Source of the DNA: Nitrospinota bacterium
Lineage (GTDB): Bacteria; JADFOP01
DNA length: 64,000 nt
Direction: 5' to 3'
Assembly: GCA_022562795.1 (NCBI GenBank)
Contig: JADFOP010000001.1
Coordinates: 20,691-84,690 of the forward strand
Shown in pieces: positions 8,239-22,111 of this stretch. Numbering within the stretch: position 1 is the first letter of the stretch; each line of letters starts with the position of its first letter. The position numbers and the translations under genes are program-made. The notes under the pieces were generated by a model that made no database searches, was not told the DNA's origin, and saw only the letters and a list, made by a program, of their open reading frames with translations.

Positions 8239-8311
8239 CACGGGGGAGGCCGGGGTAGCTCAGTCGGTAGAGCAGGGGACTGAAAATCCCCGTGTCGGCG
8301 GTTCGATTCCG
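8239..8311 (+). tRNA. tRNA-Phe (anticodon GAA)
   Basis: 73-nt cloverleaf: acceptor GCCGGGG/CCCCGGC, D-arm TAGCTCAGTCGGTAGAGCA, anticodon stem GGGGA/TCCCC with loop CTGAAAA, T-arm GGCGGTTCGATTCCGTC. Confidence 0.9.
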
Positions 8312-8449
8312 TCCCCCGGCACCTCGCTTATTTCCGGGATTACCTCTTGGGCAAAAATATTTTTGAAGCGGCGTCTCCGTCTAGCGGCGACCCGCCCCTG
8401 CCTCCGGCAATGGTTAACCCCATGAGGCATTTGTTTAAGTTAACATCGA

Positions 8450-16971: not shown

Positions 16972-17085
16972 CTTCACATGACCCTAGATAACCCGTAAGG
17001 TTTTCTTTTAAAAGGGTGGGAATAATGTTTAAGTACTACGTTTTAAATGAAGGATTTCGATAAGTTCGGATCGGTAGGGTATTGC

Positions 17086-17820
17086 CTACTCTATCCTTTC
17101 AGCCAAATGGCAAATGCGATCGATCAATTCCCCTATACCAAGGATTTTTGGGTTTTCGCTAGTTATATCAACCCAATGATACCGGTCGTCTTTTTCTTTG
17201 TAGATAGCGGCTGCGACAAAATTGTTATATTCCGTCATTCCCTCCAACTTGGCAACGATATGTTCTAGACGATCGGCGCTTGCTAGTCGCATCATCCATC
17301 CACTAAAAAATAGTGGGAAGGTTTCCTCGACGAATTCTCCCCACCCGCCCTCGGTTTCTGGGTTTACATACCTTTTCAAGTCGACGGGCGTGTACTTTAC
17401 CTCTTTCACCCTCTTGTCGATATCGATCGATATCGTTCGCTCTGGTTTTAGTTCTTCCCCGCTACGATGTTCTGGGCTTCCAATCATCTTTAATTCCCCC
17501 GCGATTACTACGGCATCGGCGCTTACATTCCGGCCTGCGCGGGCATCGACCGTGAGGGTGATGTCGACCGTATGGATATCCGTTCGACCAGAGACACGAC
17601 GCTCGGTAAGCTGGACGCCACATCTCGACTCTGCCAAAGCTGCTATTGTATCCTTGAAGGCGTTACCCTTTTGTCTGTACTTGCCTTCTGGTACGAGTCC
17701 GCCCTTCCTCAAGCTGTCGAGCTCTTGAATTACCCTCAATAGATCATCCCTCACGTCTTCCCACGAGAGATGCTCAGCGATAATTCTTGCGCTCAGGTTA
17801 TTCCATCTTGTGAAGGGCAT
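17086..17820 (-). CDS. putative Type II restriction endonuclease (PD-(D/E)xK)
   Basis: TDIHTVDITLTV...VVIAGELKMIG gives a D...(D/E)xK core; directly downstream and co-oriented with a DNA MTase; low GC. Confidence 0.45.
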   Translation of the reverse strand: MPFTRWNNLSARIIAEHLSWEDVRDDLLRVIQELDSLRKGGLVPEGKYRQKGNAFKDTIAALAESRCGVQLTERRVSGRTDIHTVDITLTVDARAGRNVSADAVVIAGELKMIGSPEHRSGEELKPERTISIDIDKRVKEVKYTPVDLKRYVNPETEGGWGEFVEETFPLFFSGWMMRLASADRLEHIVAKLEGMTEYNNFVAAAIYKEKDDRYHWVDITSENPKILGIGELIDRICHLAERIE

Positions 17821-17833
17821 TCTAGGTGTTGTT

Positions 17834-18799
17834 CTATGTAGAGGAGACGACCCTGAGGGCCGCAGAGGAGAACAGTCCGCTGGTCTTGGAGCTCAGCCTC
17901 TTGTGCGCATGATCAAGGTAAGAGGGATGAATTTCAAATCCTATGCTGTTTCTGCCCCACTTTGCCGCAGCCAGATTCGTCGTTCCCGTCCCCATGAAGG
18001 GGTCGACCACCGTATCGCCGGCGAAGCTGAACATGCGCACCAATCGCCCAGCTAAATCTAAGGGGAACGGTGCGGGATGATTTCTCGTTGATTCTCCAGG
18101 AATTGTCCAGATTTGCTGAAACCATTCTCGGTGGTTTTCTTCCGAGATGACGCTTAGGAGTCTGGCAGCCACCGAAGGCCTACGGTAACCCCCTGGCTTT
18201 CGCTGCATGAGAATATACTCAATATCATTCTTAATGATCGCGTTGGGCTCGTAAGGTTTCCCGAGAAATCGAGAGCCATTTTCAACCTCGTATTGAGCGT
18301 TCGTGATCTTGTACCATATGATGGGTGCTAGGTTATCGAAGCCCAGGCCTCGACACTGCTCTTGAATTGAGGCGTGAAGTGGAACGACCATATGTCGTCC
18401 GTGTTTGCGGCGGGACAGGCATACATCGCCTACAACGATTACCAAACGTCCTCCTTTGACGAGGATGCGGAAACAATGCTTCCAAATGGGCAGCAACGAT
18501 TCGAGAAACAATTCGTAATCAGTGATAGACCCAAGTTGCCCACGACGAGATGGGTACTCTTTGAGGTTCCAGTAAGGCGGGGACGTTACGACGAGATGGG
18601 TGCTTTCGTTGTCTATAATATCCATTTCTCGGGCGTCACGAAGATACAGTGTATGAGTCGTTGAAAGGTGGGATATTGCAGATTGAATGGATTGGATAGC
18701 TTGGGGGTTTTTGGCTATCTTGGGTATATCCGTTTGGGGATTCTTGAGATTGGCTAGTTCTGGCGAAAGATGCTCACGAAGCAGATCGTCCAGATTCAT
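17834..18799 (-). CDS. DNA methyltransferase, beta class (SPPY motif IV; N4-cytosine or N6-adenine)
   Basis: VVTSPPYWN (motif IV) before DPFMGTGTT (motif I), the beta-class order; low GC. Confidence 0.8.
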   Translation of the reverse strand: MNLDDLLREHLSPELANLKNPQTDIPKIAKNPQAIQSIQSAISHLSTTHTLYLRDAREMDIIDNESTHLVVTSPPYWNLKEYPSRRGQLGSITDYELFLESLLPIWKHCFRILVKGGRLVIVVGDVCLSRRKHGRHMVVPLHASIQEQCRGLGFDNLAPIIWYKITNAQYEVENGSRFLGKPYEPNAIIKNDIEYILMQRKPGGYRRPSVAARLLSVISEENHREWFQQIWTIPGESTRNHPAPFPLDLAGRLVRMFSFAGDTVVDPFMGTGTTNLAAAKWGRNSIGFEIHPSYLDHAHKRLSSKTSGLFSSAALRVVSST

Positions 18800-18999
18800 A
18801 TCTTCATTCTACCATATAATTAGGTGGATAAAACTCCCAAATTTGATTTTTCATGCAGCCGACTCAAGACATATAGATGTGAAAAAGGGTCGGGAGCCAT
18901 TCTACTACCTTTAGACGAATGACCAGTGATAAAAATTACAAGTTCAGCCTTTAGAGGGTCTCCCAATAAAAACCCTCAGAGGATCTAAAATAGCCCGCC

Positions 19000-19836
19000 T
19001 CAAACCTTCGTGTGCTCGGTTTGGGCCTCTTGGGTATCGTCGGGCAGGTCGACCAGGCGGTAGTCGCCGAAGAGGTTCGGGGCCTCTCGCTGCATGATCT
19101 TGAGCATCTGGATGGCCACCTTGCGTATCTCGATGTCGGCGTCGCGGGAGCCGCGCATCTCGATGTAGTGGCGAAGGGCCCGGGCGTTGGCGCTCCAAAA
19201 AAGGTAGGTCTCGGTGGAGTTGGGCATGACGCTCCGGGCAGCGCTCCGGACGGTCTTGACCAGGAGGGTTTTATCGAGATGCTCCCGGAGGTCCTCGGCC
19301 AAAAGCTGCACAAGCTTGTCGTAGGCCCCCTGTGACTGGGCTACCGCCTCCTCCCAGACCCGCTTGGCCTCGGGGTTGGCCTCGATCATGGGCAGCAGCG
19401 CCTGGCCGCTCGCGCTCTCCGAGACGTAGCGTTGGGATCGCTGGCTGATGGCGATGCCCGCCCGGTGGCGGACGTGCTCGTGCGAGAAGACCCGGCTCAC
19501 CCCCGCGATGATGAAGTTCCAAACGGCGTGTTCTAATACGCTTCCGTGCTTCGATTCGATGATGTGGCCCAGGTACTCCCCGGTGTCTGAGCGGCCCTTG
19601 CCGAAGGCGTCGTAGCAGATCTTGCCCGCCGCCATACAGAGCAGCTCGGCGGCGTTGTCCGTGTCGGTCTCCCAGTGGAGCGGGGCCTCCTCGCCCGCCT
19701 GAGGCGGGTCGGTGACCTGCTCTCCCGCAATGGTGACCCCAACCCCTTCATCGTCGAAAAAGGCCTTCCAGCCCTCCTTGACAAGCGAGGGCCGGCCCAT
19801 CAGGTAGACCCTGGGTTCGCGGACGACGGTAATCAC
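19000..19836 (-). CDS. thyX: flavin-dependent thymidylate synthase ThyX
   Basis: ThyX signature HEHVRHRAGIAISQRSQRY (RHRxxxxxxxS...RY). Confidence 0.8.
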   Translation of the reverse strand: MITVVREPRVYLMGRPSLVKEGWKAFFDDEGVGVTIAGEQVTDPPQAGEEAPLHWETDTDNAAELLCMAAGKICYDAFGKGRSDTGEYLGHIIESKHGSVLEHAVWNFIIAGVSRVFSHEHVRHRAGIAISQRSQRYVSESASGQALLPMIEANPEAKRVWEEAVAQSQGAYDKLVQLLAEDLREHLDKTLLVKTVRSAARSVMPNSTETYLFWSANARALRHYIEMRGSRDADIEIRKVAIQMLKIMQREAPNLFGDYRLVDLPDDTQEAQTEHTKV

Positions 19837-20393
19837 GTGAGCCCTCCTTGAAAGAGTTCCGCCTGCGTGGCGGAGCGGTAGCGCCCGGCGTAGGGCTCCT
19901 CAACCGCCTCGAGCATCTTGAAGAAGATTAACTGTATGAGCCGGGCCCCGCGGCGGAGGCGAAAGCCGTGGCGGTTGTGGACCACAAGCAGGGCTTCGCT
20001 GGCCCCCTGGAAGCCCGAGTCCCAAAGCGCCGTCTCGACGGTAGCCCCGCTACGCTGGAGGCTCGATCGCGGCCGTGCGATGGCGAAGACGTCGTTTGGG
20101 ATGTGGACCAGCTCGGTGAATGCGATCCGGTAGGCCCCAGGCGCCAGCGTGACCCAGCCCTCCTCATCGAAGGCCTTGGGACGCCCGCTTGCCAACGAGC
20201 GGTCTCGATTGTCGAATCCGAGGCTTCCGGGCCCAACGAGCGCAACCACGCTCTTGAGCGTAAGCTCAATCCCGTTGGGCTGAAGTTGGGTCTCCGGGTC
20301 TAGGAGGCCTTCGACTAAGGGCGGCTCGCCTCGGAGGGCCTCTCGGAGGTCCTCGCCAGCCAGCACCGCCAGGGGGCGGAAAGCATCTTCCAT
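19833..20393 (-). CDS. dcd: dCTP deaminase (Dcd/dUTPase superfamily)
   Basis: IARPRSSLQRSG...ALWDSGFQG...ARLIQLIFF typical Dcd; overlaps thyX start by 4 nt. Confidence 0.7.
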   Translation of the reverse strand: MEDAFRPLAVLAGEDLREALRGEPPLVEGLLDPETQLQPNGIELTLKSVVALVGPGSLGFDNRDRSLASGRPKAFDEEGWVTLAPGAYRIAFTELVHIPNDVFAIARPRSSLQRSGATVETALWDSGFQGASEALLVVHNRHGFRLRRGARLIQLIFFKMLEAVEEPYAGRYRSATQAELFQGGLT

Positions 20394-20639
20394 GGGCCAG
20401 CCTCGGGGAGGGAGAAAACTAACGGCTGAAAGATATTCTCTAGGATACTTGTATCAGAACCGGCCCCTTGAGACAAGAAGTAATAGGCGGTCGTGTCTAG
20501 TTGAGGCAGTATTGAAGGGGGCCACCGGGAGGCCGGAAGGCTCGCAGTCCACCAGGTGGGAGGGAAATCCGCCGGGAACCTTTTCGCGAACCAATCCGGG
20601 CCGACCCAGCGGCCCCTTGCATCTCTATAGACCCCCTCG

Positions 20640-21110
20640 GACGCTCCTCGGTGGAATCCGCCTTAGGTCCGCCTTAGGCGGATGGGTGTCCGATTTGTCG
20701 TCTCGTACTTCCCTTACTTCCCGCACTTCACGAATGGGAAGCGATTTTTTACTATTTTAGGGTAGTCGGGGTCGCCCCTGACCCCGACACCACTCGAACG
20801 TAATGGGATGACTAACGCATCCACGCGAAGAGGGGGCTTGCTACCACGTAACGAGCACGACCTATAAGAGGCGACCCTTCTTTTGTAACAATAGCTGCGC
20901 CCAAGACCTTAGGGATTAAAAGGAGTCGGGGTCAGGGGGTCGCAAGCGACCTTTGGTCGCCCGACTACCCGGAGGTGCGGACAGGGGTAACCCTGTCCCT
21001 ACAAAGGCACACGACGATGTAGGGACAGCCTTTAGGCTGTCCGGGTTTTCTTTGCGGACAGGGAGTCGCAAGCGACCTTTGGTCGGCCCTGTCCCTACAC
21101 GGGCACAAAA
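20640..21110. repeat. cluster of structured inverted/direct repeats (MITE/REP-like or structured RNA)
   Basis: Hairpin GTCGGGGTC-GCCCCT-GACCCCGAC; GTCGCAAGCGACCTTTGGTCG twice (~20939 and ~21067); GGACAGGG...CCCTGTCC stems x3; conserved CTACA-N14-TGTAG hairpin twice; hairpin+T-run GGACAGCCTTTAGGCTGTCCGGGTTTTCTTT. Confidence 0.5.
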
Positions 21111-21169
21111 CCATGTAGTCAAGGGGCGGCTTGAGAGGCCGGATGGGACGACGGGCAGGATGCGGCGGC

Positions 21170-22111
21170 TTAGAACGAGAAGCCCAGCTCCATGACCCAG
21201 ATGTCGCCCTGGCCGTCGGCCCTGTCGGAGAAGTAGGCTATCCGCATCCCGTCGGGGCTCCAGGAGGGAGACCAGTCCCTCGCCGGGTGGTGGGTAAGCT
21301 GGCGGGGGTTATCGCCGTTGGGCGCCATGATCCAGATGTCGAGGTTGCCGCTTCGGGCGCTGAACCAGGCGATGACGCTCCCGCCGGGCCGGAAGGTGGG
21401 CGCGAGGTCCGCAGCGCGTCCGAAGGTGAGCCGCTCCTTGTTGGAGCCGTCGGCGTCCATTATCCAGATGTCCCGACTCCCGGCTCTGTCGGAGTGAAAG
21501 ACGATCCGGCGGCCGTCGGGGCTCCAGTCCGGGGCGCCGTCCGTCCCTCTCCAGGAGGTGAGCGGCTGGGCGTCTGTGCCGTCGGCGTTCATGACCCAGA
21601 TGTCGGTTTTAGTGCGCCGAATGTGGCGAACCCAGACAATCCTCTTCCCATCAGGGCTCCAGTTGGGAAAGAGGTCTCTGGCCGGGTGATTGGTCAGCTG
21701 CTCCATGTTCGAGCCGTCGGCATCCATTGCCCAGATGTCGAGGTTGCCCGAGCGGGTCGAGTAAAAGAGGATGCGGCGGCCGTCGGGCGAGTATGTCGCT
21801 GATGCGTCGACGACGGCTCCGCGCGTGAGCTCAGTCTTGTTTGAGCCGTCGGCGTCCATGACCCAGATGTGGGTGAAGCGGCCTCGCCTTGAGTCGAAGA
21901 TGATGCGGCGGCCGTCTGGGCTCCAGCCGGGCCGCTCCTCGACCGAGCGCTCGGAGGTCAGCCGCGTTTCCCTCAACACCGTGAAGAAGGAGGGCGGGAC
22001 GGCCGCCCAAGCAGCTGCGTAGAGCAAGACGACAGCGGCCGTGGCGGACGCCGCCGCCCGGAGCCTACCGCCATGTGATGTAGATGCTCGCCCCGGAGTA
22101 GGATATCTCAT
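21170..22111 (-). CDS. TolB-like periplasmic beta-propeller (PD40 repeats)
   Basis: Repeated SPDG(R/K)RI.F.S.R.G..DIW.M.ADGS PD40 units; N-terminal signal peptide. Confidence 0.7.
   Translation of the reverse strand: MRYPTPGRASTSHGGRLRAAASATAAVVLLYAAAWAAVPPSFFTVLRETRLTSERSVEERPGWSPDGRRIIFDSRRGRFTHIWVMDADGSNKTELTRGAVVDASATYSPDGRRILFYSTRSGNLDIWAMDADGSNMEQLTNHPARDLFPNWSPDGKRIVWVRHIRRTKTDIWVMNADGTDAQPLTSWRGTDGAPDWSPDGRRIVFHSDRAGSRDIWIMDADGSNKERLTFGRAADLAPTFRPGGSVIAWFSARSGNLDIWIMAPNGDNPRQLTHHPARDWSPSWSPDGMRIAYFSDRADGQGDIWVMELGFSF

What the first reader, a model, noticed from the sequence alone, without database searches (positions are those of the whole stretch)
20400..21130. 730-bp non-coding region packed with nested inverted and direct repeats (structured RNA or MITE/REP-like elements)
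Several features are visible. (1) A perfect hairpin GTCGGGGTC-GCCCCT-GACCCCGAC. (2) A 21-nt motif GTCGCAAGCGACCTTTGGTCG appears twice, 128 bp apart, each containing its own palindromes GGTCGC..GCGACC and GACC-TTT-GGTC. (3) Three GGACAGGG...CCCTGTCC stems occur. (4) A conserved CTACA-N14-TGTAG hairpin occurs twice. (5) One hairpin is followed by a T-run. (6) GGGTAGTCGGG at 20761 is mirrored by CCCGACTACCC at ~20960. ORF-track ORFs here look spurious. The region separates dcd from the TolB-like gene.
Basis: seen in the sequence. Interest (0 to 1): 0.5.

Follow-up and report, generated by a model that had tools for sequence, protein, structure and literature searches.

The report
REP repeat cluster plus conserved RNA
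The repeat-packed spacer between two genes of an uncultured Nitrospinota bacterium is an ordinary cluster of GTAG-tagged REP elements (small mobile hairpin DNA), but its repeat-free left part holds a conserved, apparently undescribed structured RNA just upstream of the dUTPase/thymidylate synthase operon.

Summary
They fall in 20656-21134. Each hairpin has the REP form: a GTAG tetranucleotide followed by a perfect 8-bp GC-rich stem. The units sit in alternating orientation as head-head and tail-tail dimers. The same units occur in a Mu-like prophage of the same MAG series and on a third contig. They also occur in more than 120 metagenome contigs, where they directly flank REP-associated tyrosine transposase (RAYT) genes. 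A near-identical strain lacks 292 bp of the cluster, and sister species lack the GGACAGGG-type units or the whole cluster. The repeats are therefore a variable REP/BIME cluster, not a conserved RNA gene. No RAYT lies in the 64-kb window, and copy number in this genome is unknown.

The repeat-free part, 20512-20661 on the minus strand, is nearly invariant across relatives and covaries as a hairpin plus a roughly 100-nt rod. Of 45 pairs, 14 show compensatory changes, and none of 500 shuffles reaches that. It has no Rfam match. It always lies upstream of dcd-thyX on the same strand. Its function is not established.

The REP part is a new member of a known kind. The RNA motif is the only possibly new item.

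The parts
20762..20787 (+). REP 'Y-left': GTAG + TCGGGGTC-GCCCCT-GACCCCGA. It is the left member of a head-head dimer; with its flank it forms the 32-nt 'arm' 20760-20791.
   Evidence: (I3, I6). The same unit stands alone at the orthologous site in L161.
20788..20925 (.). Unique spacer of about 137 bp between the two Y REPs. Its origin is unknown; it has no ORF and no homologue in any locus held.
   Evidence: Absent from L001/L005.
20926..20968 (-). REP 'Y-right': GTAG (read as CTAC at 20965-20968) + TCGGG, then the 21-mer in the loop, then CCCCTGACCCCGA. Without the 21-mer it is orthologous to the single Y REP of L160/L161 and to the degenerate copy in L001.
20939..20959 (+). 21-mer GTCGCAAGCGACCTTTGGTCG, copy 1. 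It is a self-complementary loop expansion with two mutually exclusive hairpins, GTCG-CAAG-CGAC and GCGACC-TTT-GGTCGC, sitting inside Y-right.
   Evidence: A covarying version, GCCGAAAGCGGCCTTGGCCG, occurs in L012. Long self-complementary REP loops are documented in PMC3733652.
20979..21002 (-). REP1: GTAG + GGACAGGG-TTAC-CCCTGTCC.
   Evidence: 96% identical, together with its spacer and partner, to tandem units in L012.
21003..21018 (.). Within it, 21004-21017 is the 14-nt core AAGGCACACGACGA.
   Evidence: The 14-nt core AAGGCACACGACGA is identical in L012. A similar 14-nt spacer lies next to the RAYT gene of L125.
21019..21042 (+). REP2: GTAG + GGACAGCC-TTTA-GGCTGTCC, followed by the T-rich spacer 21043-21055 (GGGTTTTCTTTGC).
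   Evidence: GGACAGCC is the commonest head-head partner of GGACAGGG units in metagenomes, and spacers are mostly 12-17 nt.
21056..21098 (-). REP3: GTAG + GGACAGGG, a 23-nt loop that contains 21-mer copy 2 (21065-21085), then CCCTGTCC. It forms a head-head heterodimer with REP2.
   Evidence: An identical 45-mer lies at an unrelated locus, L009.
21115..21134 (+). Degenerate fourth unit: GTAG + TCAAG-GGGCGG-CTTGA with a 5-bp stem. It follows a diverged copy of the 14-nt spacer (21100-21113) and lies 35 nt past the stop codon of the PD40 gene.
   Evidence: D2. This is my reading of the sequence; the stem is below the threshold used.
20656..20683 (.). Hairpin ATCCGCCTTAGG...CCTTAGGCGGAT with an 11-nt tandem duplication of TCCGCCTTAGG (20657-20678). 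It has no GTAG tag. The same kind of hairpin lies next to GGACAGGG REPs in unrelated contigs (L102, L152).
   Evidence: (D4, I5).
20695..20750 (.). Module 'B': three 9-nt direct repeats (20705-20713 GTACTTCCC, 20714-20722 TTACTTCCC, 20723-20731 GCACTTCAC), an inverted GGGAAG and a T-run. It is present in the window and L004 and absent from L001/L005. It is 84% identical to a module in the prophage locus L012.
20512..20661 (-). Conserved structured RNA candidate: a 5' hairpin plus a rod of about 100 nt. The apical sequence GGUUCCC..GG.U.UCCCUCCCACCUGGUG is invariant. It is single-copy and always lies upstream of dcd-thyX on the same strand.
   Evidence: No Rfam match.
20448..20476 (-). Promoter-like motif conserved in all relatives: TTGTCT (20476-20471), a 17-nt spacer, then TG-A-TACAAG (20456-20448). 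It lies between the RNA motif and the dcd start codon. The second hexamer lacks the usual final T.
   Evidence: Alignments. The consensus scan did not call it. This is an inference.

Best explanation
The region is a composite of two unrelated things.

(A) REP cluster, 20656-21134.
This is a cluster of GTAG-tagged repetitive extragenic palindromes (REPs), of the BIME/REPIN type. Each unit is a GTAG tetranucleotide followed by a GC-rich hairpin. Units alternate in orientation and form head-head and tail-tail dimers. Two units carry a 21-23-nt self-complementary loop expansion.

By analogy with characterised REPs, such units are non-autonomous DNA elements. A REP-associated tyrosine (HUH/Y1) transposase recognises the hairpin plus GTAG on single-stranded DNA, cleaves it and rejoins it. 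Clusters then grow, shrink and exchange modules by that activity and by recombination between dispersed clusters.

- Shown here: the anatomy, the dispersal to other loci, the strain-level gain or loss, and the direct flanking of RAYT genes by the same REP type in other organisms.
- Inferred: that a RAYT acts on these copies in this genome, and that the hairpins affect the 3' end or stability of the upstream PD40 mRNA.

(B) RNA motif, 20512-20661, minus strand.
This is a separate, conserved, covarying RNA structure linked to the dcd-thyX operon. It is most likely either a small RNA gene just upstream of the dcd promoter or a leader element. Its function is not established.
For: REP anatomy:
- Four perfect GTAG + 8-bp-stem hairpins lie within 340 bp, against 2.5 expected per 64 kb.
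- Their orientations and spacers match the head-head and tail-tail dimers and clusters described for GTAG REPs, including long self-complementary loops (PMC3733652).

Dispersal:
- L012 is a Mu-like prophage fragment (Portal_Mu 4.9e-117). Its proteins cluster at 90% identity or more with proteins MCH7768891-94, the same accession series as the window's MCH7767346-79. It carries the REP1-spacer-REP2 unit at 96% identity in 2.3 tandem copies, plus B-like and Y-like modules.
- L009 carries the REP3 45-mer at 100% identity in another context.

RAYT link:
- Seven of the 120 loci (680 kb) encode Y1_Tnp ORFs with HUH and Tyr motifs.
- In L056, L120, L125 and L141 the ORF is flanked on both sides by these REPs.
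- The L125 protein passes the NCBIfam equivalog 'REP-associated tyrosine transposase' (119 bits, cut-off 80). It is flanked on both sides by tail-tail dimers like the window's.
- 52 of 145 units have a head-head partner. The commonest partner stem is GGACAGCC, with 12-17-nt spacers. That is the window's REP2-REP3 pair.

Variability:
- L001 and L005 are 99.6-100% identical in the flanks but lack 20668-20959.
- L004 diverges at 20750.
- L157 has unrelated sequence in place of the cluster.
- L160 and L161 have only one Y REP.

RNA motif:
- It is nearly invariant while the neighbouring leader varies.
- A covariance model finds one copy per relative, including two sequences not used to build it (106 and 89 bits).
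- 91.1% of cells are paired, 14 of 45 pairs carry compensatory changes, and 0 of 500 shuffles reach that. The covariation score is 0.298, against at most 0.113 for slid controls.
- Only 77.5% would pair on the opposite strand.
Against: REP cluster:
- No RAYT ORF lies in the 64-kb window.
- None of the top 120 homologues of the L125 RAYT is labelled Nitrospinota.
- No other REP of these types lies in the 64 kb. Only 3 loci are known in this lineage, so copy number may be far below the usual hundred or more.
- The 137-bp spacer and module B have no REP features.
- The 292-bp difference between strains has no clean RAYT-type junction. Recombination with a cluster such as the prophage one, which has the same module order, explains it equally well.

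RNA motif:
- There are only about 6 independent lineages.
- No promoter or transcription start was identified upstream of it.
- In one subclade it lies about 700 nt from dcd.
- No transcription data exist.
Confidence: 0.85

Rival explanations
1. The repeats at 20760-21050 encode a structured non-coding RNA on the + strand. It would start after the AT-rich stretch near 20750 and end at the REP2 hairpin and its T-run.
For: Folding gives z = -5.7. There is an AT-rich TACTAT-like stretch at 20750-20755 and a terminator-like hairpin with a T-run at 21023-21052.
Against: - The left 200 bp are missing in strains with 99.6-100% identical flanks, and the whole cluster is missing in sister species.
- The minus strand folds as well (z = -5.2).
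- No promoter was called and there is no Rfam match.
- The same units occur in unrelated contexts and in very different organisms.
Confidence: 0.04
2. Element 20760-20970 is a classical MITE. It would be a 32-nt terminal inverted repeat flanking about 137 bp, inserted as one unit by a DDE transposase.
For: The arms 20760-20791 and 20922-20970 are inverted repeats (I3 and I6). The left arm and interior are present or absent between strains.
Against: - There is no target-site duplication: the flanks read ...CTATTTTA|GGGTAG and CTACCC|GGAGGT.
- The right arm alone is present at the same site in L001, L160 and L161, so the two arms did not arrive together.
- Both arms are GTAG-tagged hairpins like the other REPs.
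- The segment missing from L001 (20668-20959) does not coincide with the element's ends.
Confidence: 0.06
3. The cluster is functionally selected RNA at the 3' end of the PD40 gene's transcript. It would act as stabiliser or terminator hairpins, or as an insulator ahead of the dcd region, and not as active mobile DNA.
For: REPs elsewhere lie mostly downstream of genes, and many are proposed to act as RNA elements (abstract of PMC3733652). The cluster starts 35 nt after the PD40 stop codon. The hairpins are very stable on the minus strand.
Against: No terminator-like site was called on the minus strand. Sister species do without the cluster. This reading is compatible with the REP identification and is not an alternative to it.
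Confidence: 0.3
4. The conserved block 20512-20661 is a protein-coding remnant or a DNA-level regulatory region, not an RNA structure.
For: It lies within the 122-aa ORF at 20392-20760. It also lies upstream of a promoter-like motif.
Against: - A 1-nt indel within the species breaks the ORF, and the ORF has no Pfam hit.
- Compensatory changes occur in 14 of 45 pairs.
- There is a clear strand asymmetry from 63 G-U cells.
Confidence: 0.12

Closest known systems
GTAG-tagged REPs, BIMEs and REPINs with their RAYT (TnpA-REP) transposases (Nunvar 2010, PMC2817692; Di Nocera 2013, PMC3733652)
   Same: - A GTAG head followed by a GC-rich stem of 6-13 bp (here 8 bp), in an extragenic position.
- Head-head and tail-tail dimers and clusters in alternating orientation.
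- Heterodimers with different stems.
- Optional long self-complementary loops.
- Tandem reiteration of dimers together with flanking DNA (L012).
- RAYT genes flanked by the same REPs, seen in other contigs.
   Different: - The host phylum, Nitrospinota, is not among the phyla the abstract of that survey names (Proteobacteria, Cyanobacteria, Planctomycetes). A literature search for Nitrospina together with REPs found nothing.
- Apparent copy number is low.
- No RAYT was found in the window or the lineage.
- The same 25-nt unit occurs in contigs of 32-70% G+C.
E. coli BIME-2 clusters and RIP/RIB elements
   Same: Regularly spaced REPs in alternating orientation, separated by short conserved linkers, downstream of a gene.
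   Different: The sequences are unrelated. No IHF-type linker motif was identified. Module B, with three 9-nt direct repeats, has no known counterpart.
IS200/IS605-derived palindrome-associated elements and classical MITEs
   Same: Small, non-coding, hairpin-rich and variable between strains.
   Different: There is no target-site duplication, the element was not inserted as one unit, and no TnpA or TnpB lies nearby. The units carry the REP-type GTAG head.
Riboswitch-like leaders and small RNAs with C-rich apical loops (comparison for the 20512-20661 motif only)
   Same: Stems covary while the internal and apical sequence is invariant. The motif has a fixed strand and fixed synteny with one operon. 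Its C-rich loop UCCCUCCCACC resembles anti-Shine-Dalgarno-type sRNA loops (from general knowledge, not tested here).
   Different: It matches none of the 4227 Rfam families. It may lie upstream of the operon's promoter. Its distance to the gene varies from about 110 to about 700 nt. No ligand or target is known.

Membership tests
GTAG-tagged REP | Short (20-40 bp) GC-rich palindrome with a stem of 6-13 bp and a short loop | tested here: met
   Perfect 8-bp stems with 4-6-nt loops at 20762-20787, 20979-21002 and 21019-21042. The unit at 21056-21098 has an 8-bp stem and a 23-nt loop.
GTAG-tagged REP | Unpaired GTAG (GT[A/G]G) tetranucleotide at one end of the palindrome | tested here: met
   All four perfect units, Y-right and the degenerate unit at 21115 begin with GTAG directly at the stem (offset 0).
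GTAG-tagged REP | Extragenic location, often downstream of a gene, as dimers or clusters in alternating orientation | tested here: met
   The cluster is intergenic, 35 nt past the PD40 stop codon. The orientations are + - - + - +. REP1/REP2 form a tail-tail dimer and REP2/REP3 and the two Y units form head-head dimers.
GTAG-tagged REP | Many dispersed copies in the same genome (usually more than 100) | tested here: inconclusive
   Copies lie at three loci of this lineage: the window, the Mu-like prophage L012 and L009. No other copy lies in the 64-kb window. The whole genome was not available.
GTAG-tagged REP | A cognate RAYT gene flanked by the same REPs in inverted orientation (REPtron) | tested here: inconclusive
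   Met in other organisms: L125, L056, L120 and L141. Not found in the window or among Nitrospinota-labelled proteins.
REPIN (REP doublet replicating as a unit) | Two inverted REPs with a short conserved spacer, found as the same unit at several places | tested here: met
   The REP1-spacer-REP2 unit recurs 2.3 times in L012 at 96% identity with an identical spacer. The REP2/REP3-type heterodimer recurs in 15 or more metagenome loci.
Classical MITE | Terminal inverted repeats plus a target-site duplication, with the whole element present or absent as a unit | tested here: not met
   No duplication flanks 20760-20970. The right arm alone is present in L001, L160 and L161.
CRISPR array | Regular repeats separated by unique spacers of similar length | tested here: not met
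   The 'spacers' are identical between units in L012. Units alternate in orientation.
Any Rfam family (for the repeats and for the 20512-20661 motif) | Match to a curated covariance model | tested here: not met
   Only a tRNA at 8249-8321 reaches the gathering score. Nothing meaningful appears at E up to 10 in the region or in six homologous loci.
Riboswitch / cis-regulatory leader (20512-20661 motif) | Conserved, covarying structure in the 5' UTR of the regulated gene, with an expression platform | tested here: inconclusive
   Covariation and strand are met. A position inside the 5' UTR is doubtful. A conserved promoter-like motif lies downstream of the structure, and the distance to dcd is about 110-130 nt in some relatives and about 700 nt in others. 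No expression platform was seen.

The most novel reading that the evidence does not exclude
The minus-strand element 20512-20661 is a previously undescribed structured RNA class of a Nitrospinota clade, functionally tied to the dUTPase(dcd)-thyX operon. It would be either a riboswitch-like sensor of a pyrimidine deoxynucleotide or folate-related metabolite, or a small RNA whose invariant C-rich apical loop (UCCCUCCCACC) targets ribosome-binding sites. That it is a real structured RNA is likely (about 0.75). The probability given here is for a new regulatory RNA class with a specific function linked to dTMP synthesis.
Probability: 0.25. Interest if true: 0.65.

Novelty: new member of a known kind. 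Interest (0 to 1): 0.38.

Why it matters
The repeat cluster itself is ordinary: REPs are well known. Three smaller points still have value.

1. **New host phylum.** REP dimers are documented here in Nitrospinota, including inside a Mu-like prophage. Turnover is visible at the strain level across metagenomes.
2. **Wide distribution of one unit.** The same 25-nt GTAG-GGACAGGG unit, often with the same GGACAGCC partner, occurs next to RAYT genes in contigs of 32% to 70% G+C. This suggests either horizontal spread of REP-RAYT units or a strong constraint from the transposase on its substrate.
3. **A candidate new RNA.** The conserved RNA motif upstream of dcd-thyX may be a new regulatory RNA for thymidylate synthesis. 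No riboswitch or leader RNA for that pathway turned up in the single literature search run here, and I know of none.

Tried and rejected
- **Rfam.** Gathering thresholds on the whole window, and E up to 10 on the region and on six homologous loci, gave nothing relevant.
- **Exact 21-mer scans.** One hit in 185,579 species genomes (L009) and none in IMG/VR. The 21-mer is therefore not a widespread repeat on its own.
- **Y-hairpin scan in IMG/VR.** 22 loci matched, but none is GTAG-tagged and most are unrelated palindromes. The result is uninformative.
- **RAYT in the window.** phmmer with E. coli RayT and an iterated HMM over all six-frame ORFs found none.
- **RAYT in Nitrospinota.** Names among the homologues of the L125 RAYT include no Nitrospinota protein in the top 120.
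- **Sigma-70 promoter scan of the region.** No sites were called.
- **More distant dUTPase homologues.** P0058 (56% identity) sits in a different context, between LexA and UvrD genes, without the RNA motif. P0057 has no upstream DNA on its contig.
- **SRP, 6S, cobalamin and ZTP resemblances for the RNA motif.** I considered these by eye and dropped them. The GGAA loop is not conserved and Rfam gives no hit.
- **CRISPR-like array, decayed gene, MITE.** All rejected (see the membership tests).
Full report
**Setting**

The window comes from an uncultured Nitrospinota MAG. Its thyX product is identical to MCH7767346.1, on a 128-kb contig. Positions 20394-21169 are intergenic. On one side lies a DCD/dUTPase-family gene (19833-20393, minus strand), followed by thyX (19000-19836). 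On the other side lies a PD40/TolB-like beta-propeller gene (21170-22111, minus strand).

- The 21-mer occurs twice, against 0 expected.
- GTAG-tagged perfect hairpins with stems of at least 7 bp number 6 in the 64 kb, and 4 of them lie within 20762-21098. Shuffles give 2.5 per 64 kb.
- The segment 20750-21135 folds far better than shuffles, but on both strands (z = -5.7 and -5.2). That is what DNA palindromes give.
- Rfam finds nothing here.

**What the repeats are**

Read on the correct strand, each hairpin is a GTAG tetranucleotide followed directly by a GC-rich stem:

| Unit | Coordinates | Strand | Sequence |
|---|---|---|---|
| Y-left | 20762-20787 | + | GTAG-TCGGGGTC-GCCCCT-GACCCCGA |
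| REP1 | 20979-21002 | - | GTAG-GGACAGGG-TTAC-CCCTGTCC |
| REP2 | 21019-21042 | + | GTAG-GGACAGCC-TTTA-GGCTGTCC |
| REP3 | 21056-21098 | - | GTAG-GGACAGGG-[23-nt loop]-CCCTGTCC |

Two further units complete the set: a Y-right unit (20926-20968, -) and a degenerate unit at 21115-21134 (+) (and direct reading).

This is the defining anatomy of GTAG-tagged REPs. In the terminology of Di Nocera et al., REP1/REP2 form a tail-tail dimer, with the GTAG tags inside and 16 nt between them. REP2/REP3 form a head-head heterodimer with a 13-nt T-rich spacer. The two Y units form a head-head dimer with a spacer of about 137 bp.

The 21-mer sits in the loop of REP3 and of Y-right, in the same orientation relative to the GTAG tag. 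Long self-complementary loops of up to 27 bp are a known REP variant.

**Dispersal**

- A 1.3-kb contig of another MAG (L009) carries the REP3 45-mer at 100% identity in a different context, next to a further GTAG hairpin.
- An IMG/VR contig (L012) comes from the same metagenome as the strain variant L001. Over 73 nt it carries the REP1-spacer-REP2-T-run unit at 96% identity, reiterated 2.3 times with a 99-nt period.
- L012 also carries a Y-like palindrome whose inner part is a covarying version of the 21-mer (GTCG to GCCG, CGAC to CGGC), and an 84%-identical copy of module B.
- L012 encodes a Mu-type portal and a gpT head protein. These cluster at 90% identity or more with MCH7768891-94, the same accession series as the window's proteins. 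It is therefore very probably another locus of the same genome.

**Link to RAYT**

- In these 680 kb, seven loci encode Y1/HUH transposase-like ORFs. They were found with E. coli RayT as the probe. Three of them were checked against Pfam PF01797 and all three pass.
- In L056, L120, L125 and L141 the ORF is flanked on both sides by GTAG REPs of this type.
- The L125 protein passes the NCBIfam equivalog 'REP-associated tyrosine transposase' (119 bits against a cut-off of 80).
- Both flanks of the L125 gene are tail-tail dimers, CGGACAGGG..CCCTGTCCCTAC-N(14-27)-GTAGGGACAGAC..GTCTGTCC, like the window's.
- Of 145 units, 52 have a head-head partner. The commonest partner stem is GGACAGCC, with spacers of 12-17 nt. 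That is exactly the window's REP2-REP3 pair.

**Variability**

Contigs with an identical dUTPase show four states of the spacer:
- L001 and L005 have flanks 99.6-100% identical to the window but lack 20668-20959. They carry about 20 nt there, including a degenerate Y unit.
- L004 shares the window up to 20750, including module B, and then continues with unrelated sequence.
- Several short contigs end at 20788, the end of the perfect hairpin.
- The window itself is the fourth state.

The related MAG GCA_032840045.1 (L157) has that same unrelated sequence in place of the whole cluster. L160 and L161 have a different upstream gene and a single Y REP.

The repeats are therefore gained, lost and reshuffled on a very short time scale. 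That rules out a conserved RNA gene. It fits REP dynamics, and it fits recombination between dispersed clusters equally well. The prophage cluster has the same module order: hairpin, B, T-run, Y, REP dimers.

**Limits of the REP call**

- No RAYT lies in the window.
- None of the top 120 homologues of the L125 RAYT is labelled Nitrospinota.
- No further copy lies in the 64 kb.
- Copy number in the genome and current activity therefore remain open.
- The 137-bp spacer between the Y units and module B are unexplained. Module B has three 9-nt direct repeats at 20705-20731. Its core, GGAAGTANNGGAAGTA, occurs only upstream of dcd and in L012 among all sequences held.

**A second, different element**

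Aligning the spacer from relatives showed that 20518-20660 is almost invariant, while the sequence between it and the dcd start codon varies. A 1-nt indel within the species excludes coding.

- More distant relatives, whose dUTPase is 77-86% identical, gave diverged copies.
- RNAalifold predicts a 5' hairpin plus a rod of about 100 nt.
- A covariance model built from 7 sequences found exactly one copy per relative. These include L169 (106 bits) and L170 (89 bits), which were not used to build it. It found none elsewhere in the window.
- On 9 sequences, 91.1% of cells pair and 14 of 45 pairs show changes on both sides. None of 500 shuffles reaches the observed values.
- Sliding the partners drops the covariation score from 0.298 to at most 0.113.
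- 63 G-U cells make the opposite strand pair only 77.5%. The RNA therefore runs in the dcd direction.
- The apical sequence GGUUCCC..GG.U.UCCCUCCCACCUGGUG is invariant.
- No Rfam family matches in any homologue.

**How the RNA motif might work**

The upstream neighbour differs between relatives: a PD40 gene, a cupin gene or a cation-efflux gene. The motif stays with dcd-thyX.

A conserved promoter-like motif, TTG(C/T)C-N17-TG.TACAA, lies between the RNA and the dcd start in all relatives. A U-rich tract follows the rod in most of them. In one subclade, about 700 nt separate the RNA from dcd, including another conserved non-coding stretch.

I therefore lean towards a separate small RNA gene over a classical riboswitch, with low confidence. 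No transcription start could be identified.

**Verdict**

That makes them a new member of a known kind, of modest interest. The 'structured RNA' alternative is wrong for the repeats.

Noticed in passing
window 20512-20661 (minus strand): A block of about 150 nt is nearly invariant among relatives and covaries as a hairpin plus a rod. It has no Rfam match and always lies upstream of dcd-thyX. It is a candidate new structured RNA.
   Followed up: yes
window 20448-20476 (minus strand); L164 about 1386-1416: A conserved promoter-like motif, TTG(C/T)C-N17-TG.TACAA, lies about 45-75 nt upstream of the dcd start codon in all relatives. The second hexamer lacks the usual final T, and the consensus scan did not call it.
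   Followed up: partly
window 20705-20731; L012 5434-5449; L164 1333-1348: Direct 9-nt repeats with the core GGAAGTA-NN-GGAAGTA (read in the gene direction) occur only upstream of dcd and upstream of the Mu-like portal gene. They look like a binding site for an unknown DNA-binding protein.
   Followed up: partly
window 16972-18996: A low-GC (0.40-0.50) segment carries an N6_N4 DNA methyltransferase gene (17834-18799) and a 244-aa ORF without a Pfam hit (17086-17820). It is absent from relatives L002, L157 and L160, where thyX is followed directly by the Lar_N gene. It appears to be a strain-specific insertion, possibly a restriction-modification or orphan methylase island.
   Followed up: partly
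L164 983-1315; also L166, L167, L169: In one subclade a second stretch of about 330 nt of conserved non-coding sequence lies between the RNA motif and dcd. About 150 nt of it are invariant and end in a T-run. The only Rfam hit is weak and below threshold (DUF3800-VIII, 23.9 bits against 40.2). The window lacks this stretch.
   Followed up: partly
L012 5340-5900: A REP cluster sits inside a Mu-like prophage, directly upstream of the portal gene, in what is very probably the same Nitrospinota genome. It includes 99-nt tandem reiterations of a tail-tail dimer.
   Followed up: partly
L127 1362-1389; L138 418-446; L075 2949-2977: Fully palindromic GTAG-GGACAGGG-...-CTAC units lie inside RAYT-like ORFs. 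The REPs appear to have inserted into, or to overlap, their own transposase genes.
   Followed up: no
metagenome loci L036-L155: The same 25-27-nt REP sequence occurs in contigs of 32% to 70% G+C, which means very different organisms. The cause is not resolved: either horizontal spread of REP-RAYT units or convergence imposed by the transposase.
   Followed up: partly
window 20657-20678; also L157, L170, L004: There is an 11-nt tandem duplication, TCCGCCTTAGG TCCGCCTTAGG, inside the hairpin immediately 5' of the RNA motif. It is conserved in several relatives but single-copy in L001 and L005.
   Followed up: no
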